NCBI RefSeq assembly: GCF_003334305.1
Contig: NZ_QOWS01000009.1
DNA: 64,000 nucleotides
Direction: 5' to 3' (one strand)
Origin: Escherichia coli
GTDB lineage: Bacteria; Pseudomonadota; Gammaproteobacteria; Enterobacterales; Enterobacteriaceae
In this document: positions 766-38,902 of the stretch, piece by piece
Position numbering within the stretch: position 1 is the first letter of the stretch
How the letters are laid out: the number at the start of each line of letters is the position of its first letter
Translations under genes and position numbers: made by a program
Notes under the pieces: generated by a model
The model's input: the letters and a program-made list of their open reading frames with translations, nothing else
Told to the model about the DNA's origin: nothing
Databases searched by the model: none

Positions 766-2169
766 GTGTCACTTTCGCTTTGGCAGCAGTGTCTTGCCCG
801 ATTGCAGGATGAGTTACCAGCCACAGAATTCAGTATGTGGATACGCCCATTGCAGGCGGAACTGAGCGATAACACGCTGGCCCTGTACGCGCCAAACCGT
901 TTTGTCCTCGATTGGGTACGGGACAAGTACCTTAATAATATCAATGGACTGCTAACCAGTTTCTGCGGAGCGGATGCCCCACAGCTGCGTTTTGAAGTCG
1001 GCACCAAACCGGTGACGCAAACGCCACAAGCGGCAGTGACGAGCAACGTCGCGGCCCCTGCACAGGTGGCGCAAACGCAGCCGCAACGTGCTGCGCCTTC
1101 TACGCGCTCAGGTTGGGATAACGTCCCGGCCCCGGCAGAACCGACCTATCGTTCTAACGTAAACGTCAAACACACGTTTGATAACTTCGTCGAAGGTAAA
1201 TCTAACCAACTGGCGCGCGCGGCGGCTCGCCAGGTGGCAGATAACCCTGGCGGTGCCTATAACCCGTTGTTCCTTTATGGCGGCACGGGTCTGGGTAAAA
1301 CTCACCTGCTGCATGCGGTGGGTAACGGCATTATGGCGCGCAAGCCGAATGCCAAAGTGGTTTATATGCACTCCGAGCGCTTTGTTCAGGACATGGTTAA
1401 AGCCCTGCAAAACAACGCGATCGAAGAGTTTAAACGCTACTACCGTTCCGTAGATGCACTGCTGATCGACGATATTCAGTTTTTTGCTAATAAAGAACGA
1501 TCTCAGGAAGAGTTTTTCCACACCTTCAACGCCCTGCTGGAAGGTAATCAACAGATCATTCTCACCTCGGATCGCTATCCGAAAGAGATCAACGGCGTTG
1601 AGGATCGTTTGAAATCCCGCTTCGGTTGGGGACTGACTGTGGCGATCGAACCGCCAGAGCTGGAAACCCGCGTGGCGATCCTGATGAAAAAGGCCGACGA
1701 AAACGACATTCGTTTGCCGGGCGAAGTGGCGTTCTTTATCGCCAAGCGTCTACGATCTAACGTACGTGAGCTGGAAGGGGCGCTGAACCGCGTCATTGCC
1801 AATGCCAACTTTACCGGACGGGCGATCACCATCGACTTCGTGCGTGAGGCGCTGCGCGACTTGCTGGCATTGCAGGAAAAACTGGTCACCATCGACAATA
1901 TTCAGAAGACGGTGGCGGAGTACTACAAGATCAAAGTCGCGGATCTCCTTTCCAAGCGTCGATCCCGCTCGGTGGCGCGTCCGCGCCAGATGGCGATGGC
2001 GCTGGCGAAAGAGCTGACTAACCACAGTCTGCCGGAGATTGGCGATGCGTTTGGTGGTCGTGACCACACGACGGTGCTTCATGCCTGCCGTAAGATCGAG
2101 CAGTTGCGTGAAGAGAGCCACGATATCAAAGAAGATTTTTCAAATTTAATCAGAACATTGTCATCGTAA
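766..2169 (+). CDS. dnaA: Chromosomal replication initiator DnaA (GTG start, 467 aa)
   Basis: Track ORF 754..2169; protein from [13 protein letters not shown] matches E. coli DnaA; AAA+ Walker [11 protein letters not shown]; start moved to the internal GTG. Confidence 0.95.
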
Positions 2170-6808: not shown

Positions 6809-6912
6809 CGTGCCTGATGCGCTACGCTTATCAGGCCTACGAAAATCTTGCAATGTATTGAATTTTCATGATTTTGTAGGCCGGATAAGGCGTTCACGCC
6901 GCATCCGGCAAG
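6809..6912. repeat. REP/BIME-type extragenic palindromic repeats downstream of gyrB
   Basis: Two REP-like palindromes (gcctgatgcgctacgcttatcaggcctac and gtaggccggataaggcgttcacgccgcatccggc) in inverted orientation. Confidence 0.7.
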
Positions 6913-16970: not shown

Positions 16971-17071
16971 TACATCGTAGCCGATGAGGACGCGCCTGAT
17001 GGGTGTTCTGGCTACCTGACCTGTCCATTGTGGAAGGTCTTACATTCTCGCTGATTTCAGGAGCTATGATT

Positions 17072-17485
17072 ATGCGTAACTTTGATTTATCCCCGCTTTA
17101 CCGTTCTGCTATTGGATTTGACCGTTTGTTTAACCACTTAGAAAACAACCAGAGCCAGAGTAATGGCGGCTACCCTCCGTATAACGTTGAACTGGTAGAC
17201 GAAAACCATTACCGCATTGCTATCGCTGTGGCTGGTTTTGCTGAGAGCGAACTGGAAATTACCGCCCAGGATAATCTGCTGGTGGTGAAAGGTGCTCACG
17301 CCGACGAACAAAAAGAGCGCACCTATCTGTACCAGGGCATCGCTGAACGCAACTTTGAACGCAAATTCCAGTTAGCTGAGAACATTCATGTTCGTGGCGC
17401 TAACCTGGTAAATGGTTTGCTGTATATCGATCTCGAACGCGTGATTCCGGAAGCGAAAAAACCGCGCCGTATCGAAATCAACTAA
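17072..17485 (+). CDS. ibpA: Small heat-shock protein IbpA
   Basis: 137 aa from [20 protein letters not shown]; alpha-crystallin domain. Confidence 0.9.
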
Positions 17486-31354: not shown

Positions 31355-31442
31355 AACTGTGATCGATACTCAACTATGCCCTAAATACGTCAAAATTCGT
31401 GCCGAAATTGCGCGTTCTGCGCGGAACACGTATACTTTCAGT

Positions 31443-31518
31443 GTTGACATAATACAGTGTGCTTTGCGGTTACCAGCCGCAGGCGGCTGATGAAACCTCG
31501 CTCCGGCGGGGTTTTTTG
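31443..31518 (+). ncRNA. istR: IstR-1 antitoxin sRNA (longer IstR-2 isoform would start upstream, near 31370-31380)
   Basis: About 75-nt unit ending in an intrinsic terminator (GC-rich stem plus tttttt at 31512-31517); its 5' 20 nt ttgacataatacagtgtgct is near-identical to 31189-31208 in the tisAB leader, so the two RNAs are complementary; TATACT -10 at about 31432. Confidence 0.6.
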
Positions 31519-33907: not shown

Positions 33908-34498
33908 ATGATCACCGTTGCCCTTATAGACGATCACCTCATCGTCCGCTCCGGCTTTGCGCAGCTGCTGGGGCTGGAACCTGATTTGCAGGTAGTTGCC
34001 GAGTTTGGTTCGGGGCGCGAGGCGCTGGCGGGGCTGCCGGGGCGCGGTGTGCAGGTGTGTATTTGCGATATCTCCATGCCCGATATCTCCGGTCTGGAAC
34101 TGCTAAGCCAGCTGCCGAAAGGTATGGCGACAATAATGCTCTCTGTTCATGACAGTCCGGCGCTGGTTGAGCAGGCGCTTAACGCGGGGGCGCGCGGCTT
34201 TCTCTCCAAACGCTGTAGCCCTGACGAACTGATTGCGGCGGTGCATACGGTTGCTACGGGCGGCTGTTATCTGACGCCGGATATTGCCATTAAACTGGCA
34301 TCCGGTCGTCAGGACCCGCTGACCAAACGTGAACGCCAGGTGGCGGAAAAACTGGCGCAAGGAATGGCGGTGAAAGAGATTGCCGCCGAACTGGGCTTGT
34401 CACCGAAAACGGTACACGTCCATCGCGCCAATCTGATGGAAAAACTGGGCGTCAGTAACGACGTAGAACTGGCGCGCCGCATGTTTGATGGCTGGTGA
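33908..34498 (+). CDS. uhpA: Response regulator UhpA (NarL/LuxR family)
   Basis: Track ORF 33845..34498; start at [16 protein letters not shown] to give 196 aa. Confidence 0.9.
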
Positions 34499-36000
34499 TG
34501 AAGACGTTGTTCTCCCGCTTAATTACCGTTATTGCCTGCTTTTTTATCTTCTCTGCCGCATGGTTTTGCCTGTGGAGTATCAGCCTGCACCTGGTTGAGC
34601 GCCCTGATATGGCGGTGCTGTTATTTCCGTTTGGTCTGCGGCTAGGGCTAATGCTGCAATGCCCGCGCGGATACTGGCCCGTATTGCTGGGTGCGGAATG
34701 GCTGCTAATTTACTGGCTAACGCAGGCGGTCGGTTTAACCCATTTTCCGTTATTGATGATCGGTAGTTTACTGACGTTACTGCCCGTAGCGCTGATCTCG
34801 CGCTATCGCCATCAGCGTGACTGGCGCACCTTGCTGTTACAGGGGGCGGCGTTAACGGCGGCGGCGTTGTTGCAGTCGCTGCCCTGGCTTTGGCACGGCA
34901 AAGAGTCGTGGAATGCGCTGTTGCTGACTTTAACTGGCGGCCTGACGCTGGCCCCGATATGTCTGGTGTTCTGGCACTATCTCGCCAATAACACCTGGCT
35001 GCCGCTCGGCCCGTCACTGGTTTCTCAACCGATCAACTGGCGCGGGCGGCATCTGGTCTGGTACTTGCTGTTGTTTGTTATTAGTCTCTGGCTCCAGTTG
35101 GGATTGCCGGACGAACTGTCGCGCTTTACGCCATTCTGCCTGGCGCTGCCGATTATCGCGCTGGCCTGGCACTACGGTTGGCAAGGGGCGCTGATCGCGA
35201 CGTTGATGAACGCCATCGCGCTGATCGCCAGTCAAACCTGGCGCGATCATCCGGTGGATTTATTGCTCTCGTTGCTGGTGCAAAGTCTGACAGGGTTGTT
35301 ACTGGGCGCTGGCATCCAGCGGTTGCGTGAACTTAACCAGTCGCTGCAAAAGGAACTGGCGCGCAATCAGCATCTGGCTGAACGGTTGCTGGAAACCGAA
35401 GAGAGCGTGCGTCGTGATGTGGCGCGTGAGCTGCATGATGATATCGGTCAGACCATCACTGCTATTCGTACTCAGGCGGGCATTGTTCAGCGGCTGGCGG
35501 CAGATAACGCCAGCGTGAAGCAGAGCGGGCAGCTCATCGAACAACTATCGCTGGGCGTTTACGACGCGGTGCGCCGTTTGTTGGGTCGGTTACGTCCGCG
35601 CCAGTTGGATGATCTCACCCTGGAGCAGGCCATCCGCTCACTGATGCGGGAAATGGAGCTGGAAGGGCGCGGTATTGTCAGCCATCTCGAATGGCGAATC
35701 GATGAATCAGCATTAAGTGAAAACCAGCGCGTGACGCTGTTTCGTGTCTGCCAGGAAGGGCTGAACAACATTGTGAAACATGCTGATGCCAGCGCGGTCA
35801 CGCTGCAAGGCTGGCAGCAGGATGAACGGTTGATGCTGGTTATTGAAGACGATGGCAGCGGTTTGCCGCCGGGTTCCGGGCAACAAGGTTTTGGCCTCAC
35901 CGGAATGCGCGAGCGCGTAACGGCGCTGGGTGGCACATTACACATTTCCTGTCTGCACGGCACGCGTGTCAGCGTTTCTCTACCTCAACGCTATGTCTAA
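34498..36000 (+). CDS. uhpB: Sensor histidine kinase UhpB
   Basis: 500-aa membrane histidine kinase; track ORF starts one codon upstream. Confidence 0.9.
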
Positions 36001-36009
36001 GGTTTGATG

Positions 36010-37329
36010 ATGTTGCCGTTTCTGAAAGCGCCTGCCGATGCGCCATTAATGACTGATAAATATGAAATTGATGCCCGCTATCGCTACTGGCGTCGGCATA
36101 TTCTGCTGACCATCTGGCTGGGTTATGCGCTGTTTTACTTCACGCGGAAAAGTTTTAACGCCGCCGTACCAGAAATCCTTGCTAACGGCGTGCTCAGCCG
36201 TAGCGATATCGGCCTGTTAGCGACCCTGTTTTACATTACCTATGGCGTGTCGAAGTTTGTCTCCGGCATTGTCAGCGATCGCTCAAATGCCCGTTATTTT
36301 ATGGGGATAGGGCTTATCGCCACGGGCATTATCAACATTCTGTTTGGCTTCTCGACGTCGCTATGGGCGTTTGCCGTGCTCTGGGTGCTGAACGCCTTTT
36401 TCCAGGGCTGGGGTTCACCGGTGTGTGCGCGTCTGTTAACGGCCTGGTATTCACGTACCGAGCGCGGCGGTTGGTGGGCATTATGGAACACGGCGCATAA
36501 CGTCGGCGGCGCACTCATTCCCATTGTGATGGCAGCGGCTGCACTACATTACGGCTGGCGTGCCGGGATGATGATTGCTGGTTGTATGGCGATCGTCGTG
36601 GGAATTTTTCTCTGCTGGCGGCTGCGCGATCGCCCGCAGGCGTTAGGTTTACCGGCGGTCGGTGAATGGCGACACGACGCGCTGGAGATAGCTCAACAAC
36701 AAGAAGGGGCAGGGCTGACGCGTAAAGAGATCCTCACCAAATATGTGTTGCTGAATCCGTATATCTGGCTGCTTTCGTTTTGCTATGTGCTGGTCTATGT
36801 GGTCCGGGCGGCAATCAACGACTGGGGCAATTTGTATATGTCCGAGACGCTGGGCGTCGATCTGGTCACGGCGAATACGGCAGTGACGATGTTTGAACTG
36901 GGCGGATTTATCGGTGCGCTGGTAGCCGGTTGGGGCTCGGACAAATTGTTTAACGGCAACCGTGGGCCGATGAATTTGATTTTCGCCGCCGGAATTTTGC
37001 TTTCAGTCGGCTCGCTGTGGCTGATGCCATTTGCCAGCTACGTGATGCAGGCAACCTGCTTCTTCACCATTGGTTTTTTTGTCTTTGGCCCGCAGATGTT
37101 AATCGGCATGGCGGCGGCAGAGTGTTCCCACAAAGAGGCGGCAGGGGCGGCGACGGGGTTTGTCGGCTTGTTTGCTTATCTGGGGGCGTCGCTTGCTGGT
37201 TGGCCGCTGGCGAAAGTACTCGATACCTGGCACTGGAGCGGATTTTTTGTGGTTATCTCTATCGCCGCCGGGATTTCCGCACTGCTGTTACTGCCCTTTT
37301 TGAACGCCCAGGCACCGCGCGAAGCGTGA
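36010..37329 (+). CDS. uhpC: Membrane sensor UhpC (MFS, glucose-6-phosphate receptor)
   Basis: 439 aa from MLPFLKAPADAPLMTDKYEIDARYRYW. Confidence 0.9.
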   Translation: MLPFLKAPADAPLMTDKYEIDARYRYWRRHILLTIWLGYALFYFTRKSFNAAVPEILANGVLSRSDIGLLATLFYITYGVSKFVSGIVSDRSNARYFMGIGLIATGIINILFGFSTSLWAFAVLWVLNAFFQGWGSPVCARLLTAWYSRTERGGWWALWNTAHNVGGALIPIVMAAAALHYGWRAGMMIAGCMAIVVGIFLCWRLRDRPQALGLPAVGEWRHDALEIAQQQEGAGLTRKEILTKYVLLNPYIWLLSFCYVLVYVVRAAINDWGNLYMSETLGVDLVTANTAVTMFELGGFIGALVAGWGSDKLFNGNRGPMNLIFAAGILLSVGSLWLMPFASYVMQATCFFTIGFFVFGPQMLIGMAAAECSHKEAAGAATGFVGLFAYLGASLAGWPLAKVLDTWHWSGFFVVISIAAGISALLLLPFLNAQAPREA

Positions 37330-37356
37330 TGCATCTCACCTTTTCACTTCATATCC

Positions 37357-37390
37357 GGCAAAACTAAGAAATTTTCCAGGTTTTGCCTGG
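37357..37390. promoter_or_regulatory. Inverted repeat in the uhpT promoter region (candidate UhpA site)
   Basis: ggcaaaac-N16-gttttgcc about 80-110 bp upstream of the uhpT ATG. Confidence 0.4.
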
Positions 37391-37466
37391 ACGCTATCTC
37401 AGGCCTGATTTGCTGCTGATTTTTACAATGCATGCCTCACGCAGGTATTCATTTCAGGAGTAACCC

Positions 37467-38858
37467 ATGCTGGCTTTCTTAAACCAGGTTCGCAAGCCGA
37501 CCCTGGACCTTCCGCTCGAAGTGCGGCGCAAAATGTGGTTCAAACCGTTCATGCAATCCTACCTGGTGGTCTTTATCGGCTACCTGACGATGTACCTGAT
37601 TCGCAAGAACTTTAACATCGCGCAGAACGACATGATTTCGACCTACGGGTTGAGCATGACGCAACTGGGGATGATCGGCCTGGGTTTCTCCATCACTTAT
37701 GGCGTGGGTAAAACGCTGGTTTCCTACTACGCCGACGGCAAAAACACCAAACAATTCCTGCCGTTTATGCTTATCCTGTCTGCCATTTGTATGCTGGGCT
37801 TCAGTGCCAGTATGGGCAGCGGCTCGGTTAGCCTGTTCCTGATGATTGCCTTCTACGCCTTAAGCGGCTTTTTCCAGAGTACCGGCGGTTCGTGCAGTTA
37901 CTCCACCATCACCAAATGGACGCCGCGTCGTAAACGCGGGACATTCCTCGGTTTCTGGAATATTTCTCACAACCTTGGCGGTGCAGGCGCAGCAGGTGTG
38001 GCGCTGTTCGGGGCAAATTACCTGTTCGATGGCCATGTCATCGGCATGTTTATCTTCCCGTCGATTATCGCGCTGATTGTCGGTTTTATCGGCCTGCGTT
38101 ACGGTAGCGACTCCCCGGAATCTTATGGCCTCGGCAAAGCTGAAGAACTGTTCGGCGAGGAGATCAGCGAAGAGGACAAAGAGACAGAATCTACCGATAT
38201 GACCAAGTGGCAGATCTTTGTTGAGTATGTGCTGAAAAACAAAGTGATCTGGCTGCTGTGCTTCGCCAACATTTTCCTCTATGTGGTACGTATTGGTATC
38301 GACCAGTGGTCAACCGTATACGCGTTCCAGGAACTGAAACTCTCTAAAGCGGTGGCGATTCAGGGCTTTACGCTGTTTGAAGCTGGTGCGCTGGTCGGTA
38401 CGCTGCTGTGGGGCTGGCTCTCTGACCTGGCGAACGGTCGCCGTGGCCTGGTGGCCTGCATCGCGCTGGCGTTGATTATCGCCACGCTCGGTGTGTATCA
38501 ACATGCCAGCAACGAATATATCTATCTGGCTTCTCTCTTTGCGTTGGGTTTCCTGGTCTTTGGCCCGCAATTGTTGATTGGTGTGGCTGCTGTTGGCTTT
38601 GTACCTAAAAAAGCGATTGGCGCTGCCGATGGTATTAAAGGCACCTTTGCTTACCTGATTGGTGACAGCTTTGCCAAGTTAGGTCTGGGAATGATTGCCG
38701 ATGGGACGCCGGTATTCGGCCTTACCGGCTGGGCAGGCACATTCGCCGCACTTGATATCGCCGCGATTGGTTGTATCTGCCTGATGGCGATAGTGGCGGT
38801 GATGGAAGAACGCAAAATCCGCCGCGAGAAAAAAATTCAGCAGTTGACAGTGGCATAA
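37467..38858 (+). CDS. uhpT: Hexose-phosphate:phosphate antiporter UhpT (MFS)
   Basis: 463-aa [27 protein letters not shown]. Confidence 0.95.
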
Positions 38859-38877
38859 ACGTAACTGGTGACTTTTG

Positions 38878-38902
38878 CCCGGCATGACGCCGGGCTTTTT
38901 TA
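38878..38902. terminator. Bidirectional terminator between uhpT and ade
   Basis: Hairpin gcccggcatgacgccgggc followed by tttttt. Confidence 0.7.

What the first reader, a model, noticed from the sequence alone, without database searches (positions are those of the whole stretch)
37330..37466. Inverted repeat in the uhpT promoter
ggcaaaac-N16-gttttgcc lies about 80-110 bp upstream of the uhpT ATG and is a candidate binding site for the response regulator UhpA. The assignment is by position only.
Basis: inference. Interest (0 to 1): 0.2.

Follow-up and report, generated by a model that had tools for sequence, protein, structure and literature searches.

The report
Known UhpA site in uhpT promoter
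The inverted repeat is real and lies on the long-studied DNA segment where the regulator UhpA switches on the E. coli sugar-phosphate transporter gene uhpT, so it is textbook biology rather than a discovery.

Summary
The dyad exists: GGCAAAAC (37357-37364) and GTTTTGCC (37380-37387), 80-110 bp upstream of the uhpT ATG. The spacer is 15 nt, not 16. The window is the E. coli chromosome (ilvBN-uhpABCT-adeD), and the uhpC-uhpT intergenic region is identical to K-12 MG1655.

With the transcription start inferred at 37436, the dyad spans -79 to -49 and is centred at -64. By my recollection of the Kadner-lab papers, which I could not open here, that is the strong UhpA-binding region ("-64 element", -80 to -50). 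Papers I could read confirm the layout: a CRP site centred at -103, then a strong and a weak UhpA site downstream.

Eighty Enterobacterales uhpT loci show a conserved block from -76 to -32 and rigid spacing to the CRP site and the -10 hexamer.

One refinement: the perfect 8-mer arms are not the conserved unit. They are intact in only 4 of 76 loci, and the "spacer" is better conserved than the arms. The conserved dyad is a 25-bp palindrome, AAAACTAAGAAA-T-TTTCCAGGTTTT (37360-37384).

The parts
33908..34498 (+). uhpA, a NarL/FixJ-family response regulator and the activator proposed to bind the dyad
   Evidence: RefSeq annotation of a 100%-identical E. coli record. NCBIfam equivalog NF007685 UhpA, 441.8 bits against a cut-off of 258.
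34498..36000 (+). uhpB, sensor histidine kinase/phosphatase
   Evidence: NF008649, 899 bits.
36010..37329 (+). uhpC, MFS-type glucose-6-phosphate receptor; its stop codon TGA (37327-37329) lies inside the CRP site
   Evidence: NF008661, 864 bits.
37322..37343 (.). CRP (CAP) site, core cGTGAtgcatcTCACc at 37325-37340, centre 37332.5 (about -103.5)
   Evidence: Matches TGTGA-N6-TCACA with 2 mismatches. GTGA and TCAC are 84-95% of all 80 rows, near-invariant among rows with sequence there. PMC5352689 places the CRP inverted repeat at -103.
37357..37364 (+). AAAAC is conserved and GGC is variable.
37380..37387 (+). GTT and CC are conserved; the inner T, T, G (-53 to -51) are variable. CC also starts the downstream CCTGG element.
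37360..37384 (.). Conserved 25-bp palindrome AAAACTAAGAAA-T-TTTCCAGGTTTT, centred on 37372 (-64). It is the core of the proposed strong UhpA-binding region (about 37356-37386, -80 to -50).
   Evidence: Information content is mostly 1.6-2.0 bits. Arm positions are complementary in most species at 8 of 12 pairs. An Aeromonas-labelled locus has the perfect form AGAACTAGGAA-AAA-TTCCTAGTTCT. It is unique in the window. The -80 to -50 coordinates are from memory of the literature.
37386..37404 (.). Second conserved block CCTGGACGCTATCTCAGGC (-50 to -32), matching the published weak UhpA-binding region. It contains CCTG-N10-CAGG symmetry.
   Evidence: Conservation is 78-100%. 'Downstream weak binding site' is stated in PMC4790336. 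The exact coordinates are from memory.
37424..37429 (+). -10 hexamer TACAAT; there is no recognisable -35
   Evidence: 100% conserved in 80 loci. The sigma-70 scan finds no complete promoter. It lies 52 bp from the palindrome centre in 77 of 78 loci.
37436..37436 (+). Inferred transcription start (+1)
   Evidence: Inference: 7 nt after the -10, and the position that puts the CRP dyad centre at about -103.5. Not measured here.
37456..37460 (+). Shine-Dalgarno sequence AGGAG
   Evidence: 75-96% of rows, 75% at its first base.
37467..38858 (+). uhpT, hexose-6-phosphate:phosphate antiporter; the regulated gene
   Evidence: NF007107, 832 bits.

Best explanation
The dyad is the outer part of the strong UhpA-binding region (the '-64 element') of the activator-dependent uhpT promoter of E. 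coli.

Proposed mechanism. External glucose-6-phosphate is sensed by UhpC. UhpB then phosphorylates UhpA. UhpA-P, a NarL/FixJ-type helix-turn-helix protein, occupies the palindrome centred at -64 and spreads cooperatively onto the adjacent weaker region (-50 to -32). That region sits where a -35 hexamer would be, so UhpA can recruit RNA polymerase to a promoter that has only a -10 (TACAAT). CRP-cAMP, bound at -103.5 and overlapping the uhpC stop codon, boosts activation.

Shown here: the sequence, its identity to K-12, the gene context, the conserved block from -76 to -32, and the invariant spacing between CRP site, palindrome and -10.

Taken from papers read here: a strong site plus a weak site for UhpA, CRP upstream at -103, and UhpA being essential.

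From memory or inference: the exact footprint limits, the transcription start, and which bases UhpA contacts.

My own inference from conservation: recognition rests mainly on the 25-bp palindrome AAAACTAAGAAA-T-TTTCCAGGTTTT and on the CCTGG...CAGG block. The outermost GGC and TGC, which make the 8-mers perfect, are an Escherichia/Salmonella-specific extension.
For: - Locus identity: 5417 of 5426 complete E. coli genomes carry it between uhpC and uhpT. Annotation is, NCBIfam equivalogs for UhpA/B/C/T, and identity to MG1655.
- Literature read here: PMC4790336 describes strong upstream and weak downstream UhpA sites, a single CRP site upstream, and phosphorylation stimulating binding. PMC5352689 places CRP at -103, about 30 bp upstream of the UhpA site, and shows UhpA is indispensable.
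- Phylogenetic footprint over 80 loci: -76 to -32 carries about 1.6-1.7 bits per position. The linker at -31 to -22 carries about 0.45 bits, and 4-fold degenerate sites in uhpT carry 1.09 bits.
- Spacing: palindrome centre to -10 is 52 bp in 77 of 78 loci, and CRP centre to palindrome centre is fixed in 75 of 76. The leader length, by contrast, varies from 33 to 103 nt.
- The palindrome is perfect in a divergent locus.
- No -35 hexamer is found, as expected for an activator-dependent promoter.
Against: - None of the primary footprint or mutagenesis papers could be opened. The -80 to -50 and -50 to -32 limits and the '-64 element' name therefore rest on my memory.
- The transcription start is inferred, not measured.
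- The perfect 8/8 dyad is kept in only 4 of 76 loci, with a median of 6/8. Position -76/-52 is complementary in only 13 of 76. Selection is therefore not on the 8-mer dyad as such.
- The arms are 23 bp apart centre to centre, too far for the two halves of a single NarL-type dimer.
- No UhpA or UhpA-DNA structure exists in the PDB copy, so the contact geometry is unknown.
Confidence: 0.9

Rival explanations
1. The 8-mer arms themselves are not recognised. UhpA reads only the central palindrome (about TAAGAAA-T-TTTCCAG) and the downstream CCTGG...CAGG block. The perfect outer symmetry in E. coli is a lineage-specific accident or mere A/T-tract flanking DNA that affects bending or the RNA polymerase alpha-subunit C-terminal domain (alpha-CTD). 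This is a refinement of the main explanation rather than its opposite.
For: GGC (-79 to -77) and TTG (-53 to -51) are the least conserved positions of the block, at 0.5-1.2 bits. The 15-nt 'spacer' averages about 1.7 bits. The 8/8 dyad is found in only 4 of 76 loci. The inner 14 bp resemble other NarL/FixJ-family palindromic boxes such as the RcsAB box (from memory, not tested).
Against: AAAAC (-76 to -72) and GTT (-56 to -54) are 91-100% conserved, and they are complementary to each other in 73-77 of 78 loci. By my recollection the published strong footprint reaches -80.
Confidence: 0.3
2. The dyad acts in RNA as a hairpin that terminates or stabilises the uhpABC transcript after the uhpC stop codon.
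For: The + strand RNA can form a stem of about 12 bp containing the two arms. It lies 28 nt after the uhpC stop codon.
Against: Folding energy is not unusual (z = -1.6; 13 of 200 shuffles fold as well). No U-run follows on the + strand, and the only terminator-like hit is on the - strand. The stem pairs do not covary and are broken in most species, while the loop is more conserved than the stem, which is the opposite of an RNA structure signature. There is no Rfam family here.
Confidence: 0.03
3. The dyad is bound by a different factor (a second CRP, FNR or another regulator), and UhpA binds only further downstream.
For: PMC5352689 reports a gel shift of uhpT upstream DNA by FNR.
Against: The same paper found no specific FNR footprint. 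The dyad does not resemble TGTGA-N6-TCACA; the only CRP-like match in the intergenic region is 37325-37340. The literature places the strong UhpA site directly downstream of CRP. The module was found next to uhpC in 77 of the 79 full loci (one lacked enough upstream sequence to tell, and the Aeromonas-labelled one has uhpC downstream).
Confidence: 0.03
4. It is a chance inverted repeat with no function.
For: Perfect 8-bp inverted repeats of this class are expected about 13 times per 64 kb by chance.
Against: The block is far more conserved than the neighbouring linker and than synonymous sites. Its distance to the CRP site and the -10 is invariant.
Confidence: 0.02

Closest known systems
UhpA strong-binding (S) region / '-64 element' of the E. 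coli K-12 uhpT promoter (Merkel 1992; Dahl 1997; Olekhnovich & Kadner 2002)
   Same: Same gene, and the sequence is identical to MG1655. The position relative to the CRP site and the -10 is the same, and the dyad centre falls at -64 with +1 at 37436.
   Different: Nothing is detectably different; this is that element. The only caveat is that I mapped the published coordinates from memory and from secondary sources, not from the primary figures.
NarL/FixJ-family operator sites (for example NarL 7-2-7 heptamer pairs and the RcsAB box)
   Same: The regulator is a NarL/FixJ family member, and the site has dyad symmetry. The inner part, TAAGAAATTTTCCA, has the size of a single-dimer box.
   Different: The whole palindrome is 25-31 bp and continues into a second adjacent region. 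This implies more than one dimer or extended contacts, not a simple 16-bp 7-2-7 site.
CRP-assisted, activator-dependent promoters (CRP far upstream plus a regulon-specific activator)
   Same: CRP lies at about -103.5, an essential specific activator lies between it and the polymerase, a -10 is present and no -35 is found.
   Different: None noted; uhpT is cited in PMC5352689 as an example of this arrangement.

Membership tests
UhpA-binding S region of the uhpT promoter | Lies in the uhpC-uhpT intergenic region of a uhpABCT locus | tested here: met
   uhpC was found immediately upstream in 77 of 79 related loci.
UhpA-binding S region of the uhpT promoter | Same DNA sequence as the K-12 promoter on which the binding studies were done | tested here: met
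   Window 37318-37470 is identical to MG1655.
UhpA-binding S region of the uhpT promoter | Position directly downstream (about 30 bp) of the CRP site centred at -103, and upstream of a second, weaker UhpA region | tested here: met
   The CRP-like dyad centre is 37332.5. The dyad begins 24 bp and is centred 39.5 bp downstream of it. A conserved second block lies at 37386-37404.
UhpA-binding S region of the uhpT promoter | Coincides with the published DNase I footprint (-80 to -50) relative to the mapped transcription start | tested here: inconclusive
   With an inferred +1 at 37436 the dyad spans -79 to -49. However, the footprint limits are from memory and the primary papers are not held.
UhpA-binding S region of the uhpT promoter | Physical binding of UhpA / UhpA-P, and requirement for induction | not testable with these tools
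   Needs EMSA, footprinting or reporter assays.
UhpA-binding S region of the uhpT promoter | Purifying selection on the site in species that keep uhpABC-uhpT | tested here: met
   About 1.6-1.7 bits across -76 to -32, against 0.45 bits in the linker and 1.09 bits at 4-fold sites. Spacing is fixed.
Single-dimer NarL-type operator (7-2-7-like) | Two half-sites about 9-10 bp apart, centre to centre | tested here: not met
Only the inner GAAA-T-TTTC / TAAGAAA-T-TTTCCAG portion has such spacing.
Intrinsic (Rho-independent) terminator of uhpC | G+C-rich hairpin followed by a U-run on the transcribed strand | tested here: not met
   There is no + strand terminator call. Fold z = -1.6. The stem is less conserved than the loop.
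Activator-dependent sigma-70 promoter | Good -10, no -35, activator site abutting or overlapping the -35 position | tested here: met
   TACAAT is 100% conserved. No full promoter is found by scan. The conserved block reaches -32.

The most novel reading that the evidence does not exclude
The strong UhpA site may really be a 25-bp palindrome (AAAACTAgGAAA-N-TTTCCtAGTTTT) shared across Enterobacterales. In that case the extra GGC/GCC bases that lengthen it to 31 bp in Escherichia and Salmonella, together with the A at -58, could be lineage-specific tuning of UhpA occupancy or of methylation sensitivity. The -58 A creates a CCAGG Dcm methylation site next to the conserved CCTGG. As far as I know, neither the cross-species architecture nor any Dcm effect has been examined.
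Probability: 0.12. Interest if true: 0.25.

Novelty: already known. Interest (0 to 1): 0.08.

Why it matters
Little is new. The site matters because uhpT expression controls hexose-phosphate uptake and fosfomycin entry, so promoter mutations here could cause fosfomycin resistance. PuhpT is also used as a glucose-6-phosphate and cytosol reporter. The cross-species footprint shows which bases are under constraint (37360-37404) and that the module's spacing is rigid. This can help interpret promoter variants in clinical isolates.

Tried and rejected
- I tried to open the primary papers: PMC135017, PMC94613, PMC103689, PMC176797, the Dahl 1997 DOI and PMID 11976297. None is held.
- Library searches for 'CCTGRR' (a UhpA half-site consensus I half-remember), for 'strong-binding/weak-binding', for 103.5 and for SELEX/ChIP-exo data on UhpA found nothing that gives the position of the UhpA site.
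- The K-12 RefSeq record carries no binding-site feature here.
- The terminator/RNA hairpin reading was rejected.
- Covariation between the arms at -77/-51 is suggestive (C:G 27, T:A 12, C:A 18, T:G 3) but confounded by phylogeny, so I do not use it.
- A half-site self-similarity scan gave several overlapping decompositions of similar score. These include GGCAAAA/TTTTCCA/TTTTGCC and TCCAGGT/GCCTGGA. Sequence alone therefore cannot assign protomer positions.
- The apparent enrichment of GGCAAAAC in the window (11 against 4.2 expected) has a simpler explanation than extra UhpA sites. The other nine copies all lie inside long ORFs, two of them as Gly-Lys-Thr codons, and the shuffles do not keep codon structure.

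Full report
**Observation.** The sequence reads ...ATCC GGCAAAAC TAAGAAATTTTCCAG GTTTTGCC TGGACG... The arms are at 37357-37364 and 37380-37387. The repeat lies 80-110 bp upstream of the uhpT ATG at 37467, as stated. It extends to imperfect 15-nt arms separated by one base, 80% complementary.

The exact pair is unique in the window and absent from 100 shuffles. As a class, however, perfect 8-bp inverted repeats with a 10-20 nt spacer are common: 41 instances here against about 13 in simulated sequence. The repeat is real, but its mere existence is weak evidence. The nine other GGCAAAAC copies in the window all sit inside long ORFs, for example GKT codons. They are not further sites.

**Context.**
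- The window is the E. coli chromosome. The 901-bp query around the site is found in 5417 of 5426 complete genomes, always between uhpC and uhpT.
- Annotation of an identical record gives ilvB-ilvN-uhpA-uhpB-uhpC-uhpT-adeD(-)-adeQ.
- In window coordinates: uhpA 33908-34498, uhpB 34498-36000, uhpC 36010-37329, uhpT 37467-38858.
- NCBIfam equivalog or subfamily models confirm all four proteins well above cut-off.
- The 137-bp intergenic region is identical to K-12 MG1655, which, by my recollection, is the K-12 background used for the published uhpT promoter work.

**Anatomy of the intergenic region.**
- A CRP-like dyad, cGTGA-tgcatc-TCACc, lies at 37325-37340 and overlaps the uhpC stop codon.
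- TACAAT lies at 37424-37429. No -35 hexamer is present, and the sigma-70 scan finds no complete promoter.
- AGGAG lies at 37456-37460.
- PMC5352689 states that CRP-cAMP binds an inverted repeat centred at -103, about 30 bp upstream of the UhpA site, and that UhpA is indispensable.
- PMC4790336 states that UhpA binds two adjacent regions, a strong upstream one and a weak downstream one. It also says phosphorylation stimulates binding and that the single CRP site lies upstream of them.
- Centring the CRP dyad (37332.5) at about -103.5 puts +1 at 37436, which is 7 nt after the -10.
- From my own knowledge of the Kadner-lab papers, the strong UhpA footprint is -80 to -50 (the '-64 element') and the weak region is -50 to -32. 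I could not open those papers, so these limits are recollection. They fit the geometry derived here exactly.

**Comparative evidence.** I fetched 80 uhpT loci from Escherichia, Salmonella, Citrobacter, Klebsiella, Enterobacter, Pantoea, Dickeya, Brenneria and other genera. I aligned the 170 nt upstream of each ATG.
- Conservation is sharply structured. GTGA and TCAC of the CRP site are near-invariant. There is a continuous conserved block from -76 to -32 (37360-37404, about 1.6-1.7 bits per position). A non-conserved linker follows at -31 to -22 (about 0.45 bits). CTGATTTTTACAAT comes next, with the -10 invariant in all 80 loci.
- Four-fold degenerate sites in the first 150 uhpT codons carry 1.09 bits, so the block is more constrained than synonymous sites.
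- Spacing is rigid. The palindrome centre is 52 bp from the -10 in 77 of 78 loci, and the CRP-to-palindrome distance is fixed in 75 of 76. The leader from -10 to ATG, by contrast, varies from 33 to 103 nt.
- uhpC was found directly upstream in 77 of the 79 full loci (one locus held too little upstream sequence to tell).

This is the signature of a fixed-geometry activation module, and it supports the UhpA/CRP assignment independently of the literature.

- The perfect 8/8 dyad survives in only 4 of 76 loci (the window, two Escherichia and Salmonella arizonae). The median is 6/8.
- The outer GGC (-79 to -77) and the inner T, T, G of the right arm (-53 to -51) are the least conserved positions of the block.
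- Position -76/-52 is complementary in only 13 of 76 loci.
- What is conserved is a 25-bp palindrome, AAAACTAAGAAA-T-TTTCCAGGTTTT (37360-37384). Complementarity holds in most species at -75/-53, -74/-54, -73/-55, -72/-56, -68/-60, -67/-61, -66/-62 and -65/-63.
- A divergent locus labelled Aeromonas carries the perfect version, AGAACTAGGAA-AAA-TTCCTAGTTCT, in the same register.
- The idealised form matches the window once, with three mismatches. This is partly circular, because the ideal was derived from these data.
- The right arm's terminal CC also begins the conserved CCTGGACGCTATCTCAGGC block (-50 to -32). That block corresponds to the weak UhpA region and has CCTG-N10-CAGG symmetry.
- The arms are 23 bp apart, too far for the two halves of one NarL-type dimer. 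The region must hold more than one dimer or make extended contacts.
- A half-site self-similarity scan gave several equally good decompositions. No UhpA structure is in the PDB. I therefore cannot assign protomers.

**Rivals.**
- RNA hairpin or terminator for uhpC: rejected. Folding is unremarkable (z = -1.6). No U-run follows on the + strand. There is no Rfam family here. The 'stem' is less conserved than the 'loop' and shows no clean covariation.
- Another factor: FNR shifted this DNA in a gel but gave no footprint in PMC5352689. The only CRP-like match in the intergenic region is the upstream one.
- Chance: excluded by conservation and fixed spacing.

**Mechanism (best-supported).** Glucose-6-phosphate is sensed by UhpC, UhpB phosphorylates UhpA, and UhpA-P occupies the -64 palindrome. 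It then extends cooperatively onto -50 to -32, replacing the missing -35 contact and recruiting RNA polymerase to TACAAT. CRP at -103.5 enhances this.
- Shown here: the sequence anatomy, the conservation and the spacing.
- Taken from papers read here: the strong and weak sites, the CRP position, and UhpA being essential.
- From memory or inference: the footprint limits, dependence on the RNA polymerase alpha-subunit C-terminal domain and on sigma, and the contact details.

**Verdict.** This is an already known, experimentally dissected element of a model promoter. The only added value is the cross-species footprint, which shows that the conserved unit is the 25-bp palindrome plus the adjacent block, not the perfect 8-mers. 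Interest is low.

Noticed in passing
L082 818-945 (E. coli strain G5); corresponds to an insertion after window 37431; also L002, L003, L035, L036: In 737 of 5417 E. coli genomes the match to the promoter stops just after the -10. In strain G5, about 120-140 bp replace the short leader between TACAATGC and the Shine-Dalgarno sequence. The insert looks like an ERIC/IRU intergenic repeat; that identification is from memory of the ERIC consensus and was not tested. The UhpA and CRP region is untouched. The effect on uhpT mRNA or on fosfomycin uptake is unknown.
   Followed up: partly
window 38639-38904 (+): The small RNA UhpU, derived from the 3' end of uhpT, is annotated in K-12 at 3845730-3845995. 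That maps here and overlaps the end of uhpT and its 3' UTR. It is described in PMC12704781, which reports a FliA-dependent internal promoter. Rfam gave no match.
   Followed up: partly
window 37376-37380 and 37386-37390: Two CCWGG (Dcm methylation) motifs, CCAGG and CCTGG, flank the right arm inside the UhpA region. CCTGG is conserved in nearly all species. CCAGG is CCCGG in most other genera (61 of 80 have C at -58). Whether cytosine methylation affects UhpA binding was not examined.
   Followed up: no
L079 2374-2398 (record labelled Aeromonas sp. RU39B): This locus encodes a UhpT 91% identical to E. coli's, with uhpC downstream on the opposite strand rather than upstream. It has a perfect 11-3-11 palindrome at the UhpA site. 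Such high identity in a genome labelled Aeromonas suggests horizontal transfer or a mislabelled genome.
   Followed up: partly
window 37324-37334 and 37432-37442: An 11-nt inverted repeat, 91% complementary (GCGTGATGCAT / ATGCCTCACGC), pairs the CRP site with the transcription-start region 97 nt away. The start-region arm is E. coli-specific; other genera read CCTGCCATTCGC. It is probably chance.
   Followed up: no
window 37405-37411 and 37416-37422: A direct repeat CTGATTT occurs twice, 11 bp apart, between the weak UhpA region and the -10. Only the second copy, which is part of CTGATTTTTACAAT, is conserved across species.
   Followed up: partly
window 31388-31517 (+), 1276-1356 (-), 17007-17078 (+), 48321-48411 (-), 6833-6875 (-): Rfam gathering-threshold hits elsewhere in the window: istR (next to tisB), AsdA antisense RNA of dnaA, a ROSE_2 thermoregulator, tRNA-Sec and the ES036 sRNA. 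All are known elements of this E. coli region.
   Followed up: no
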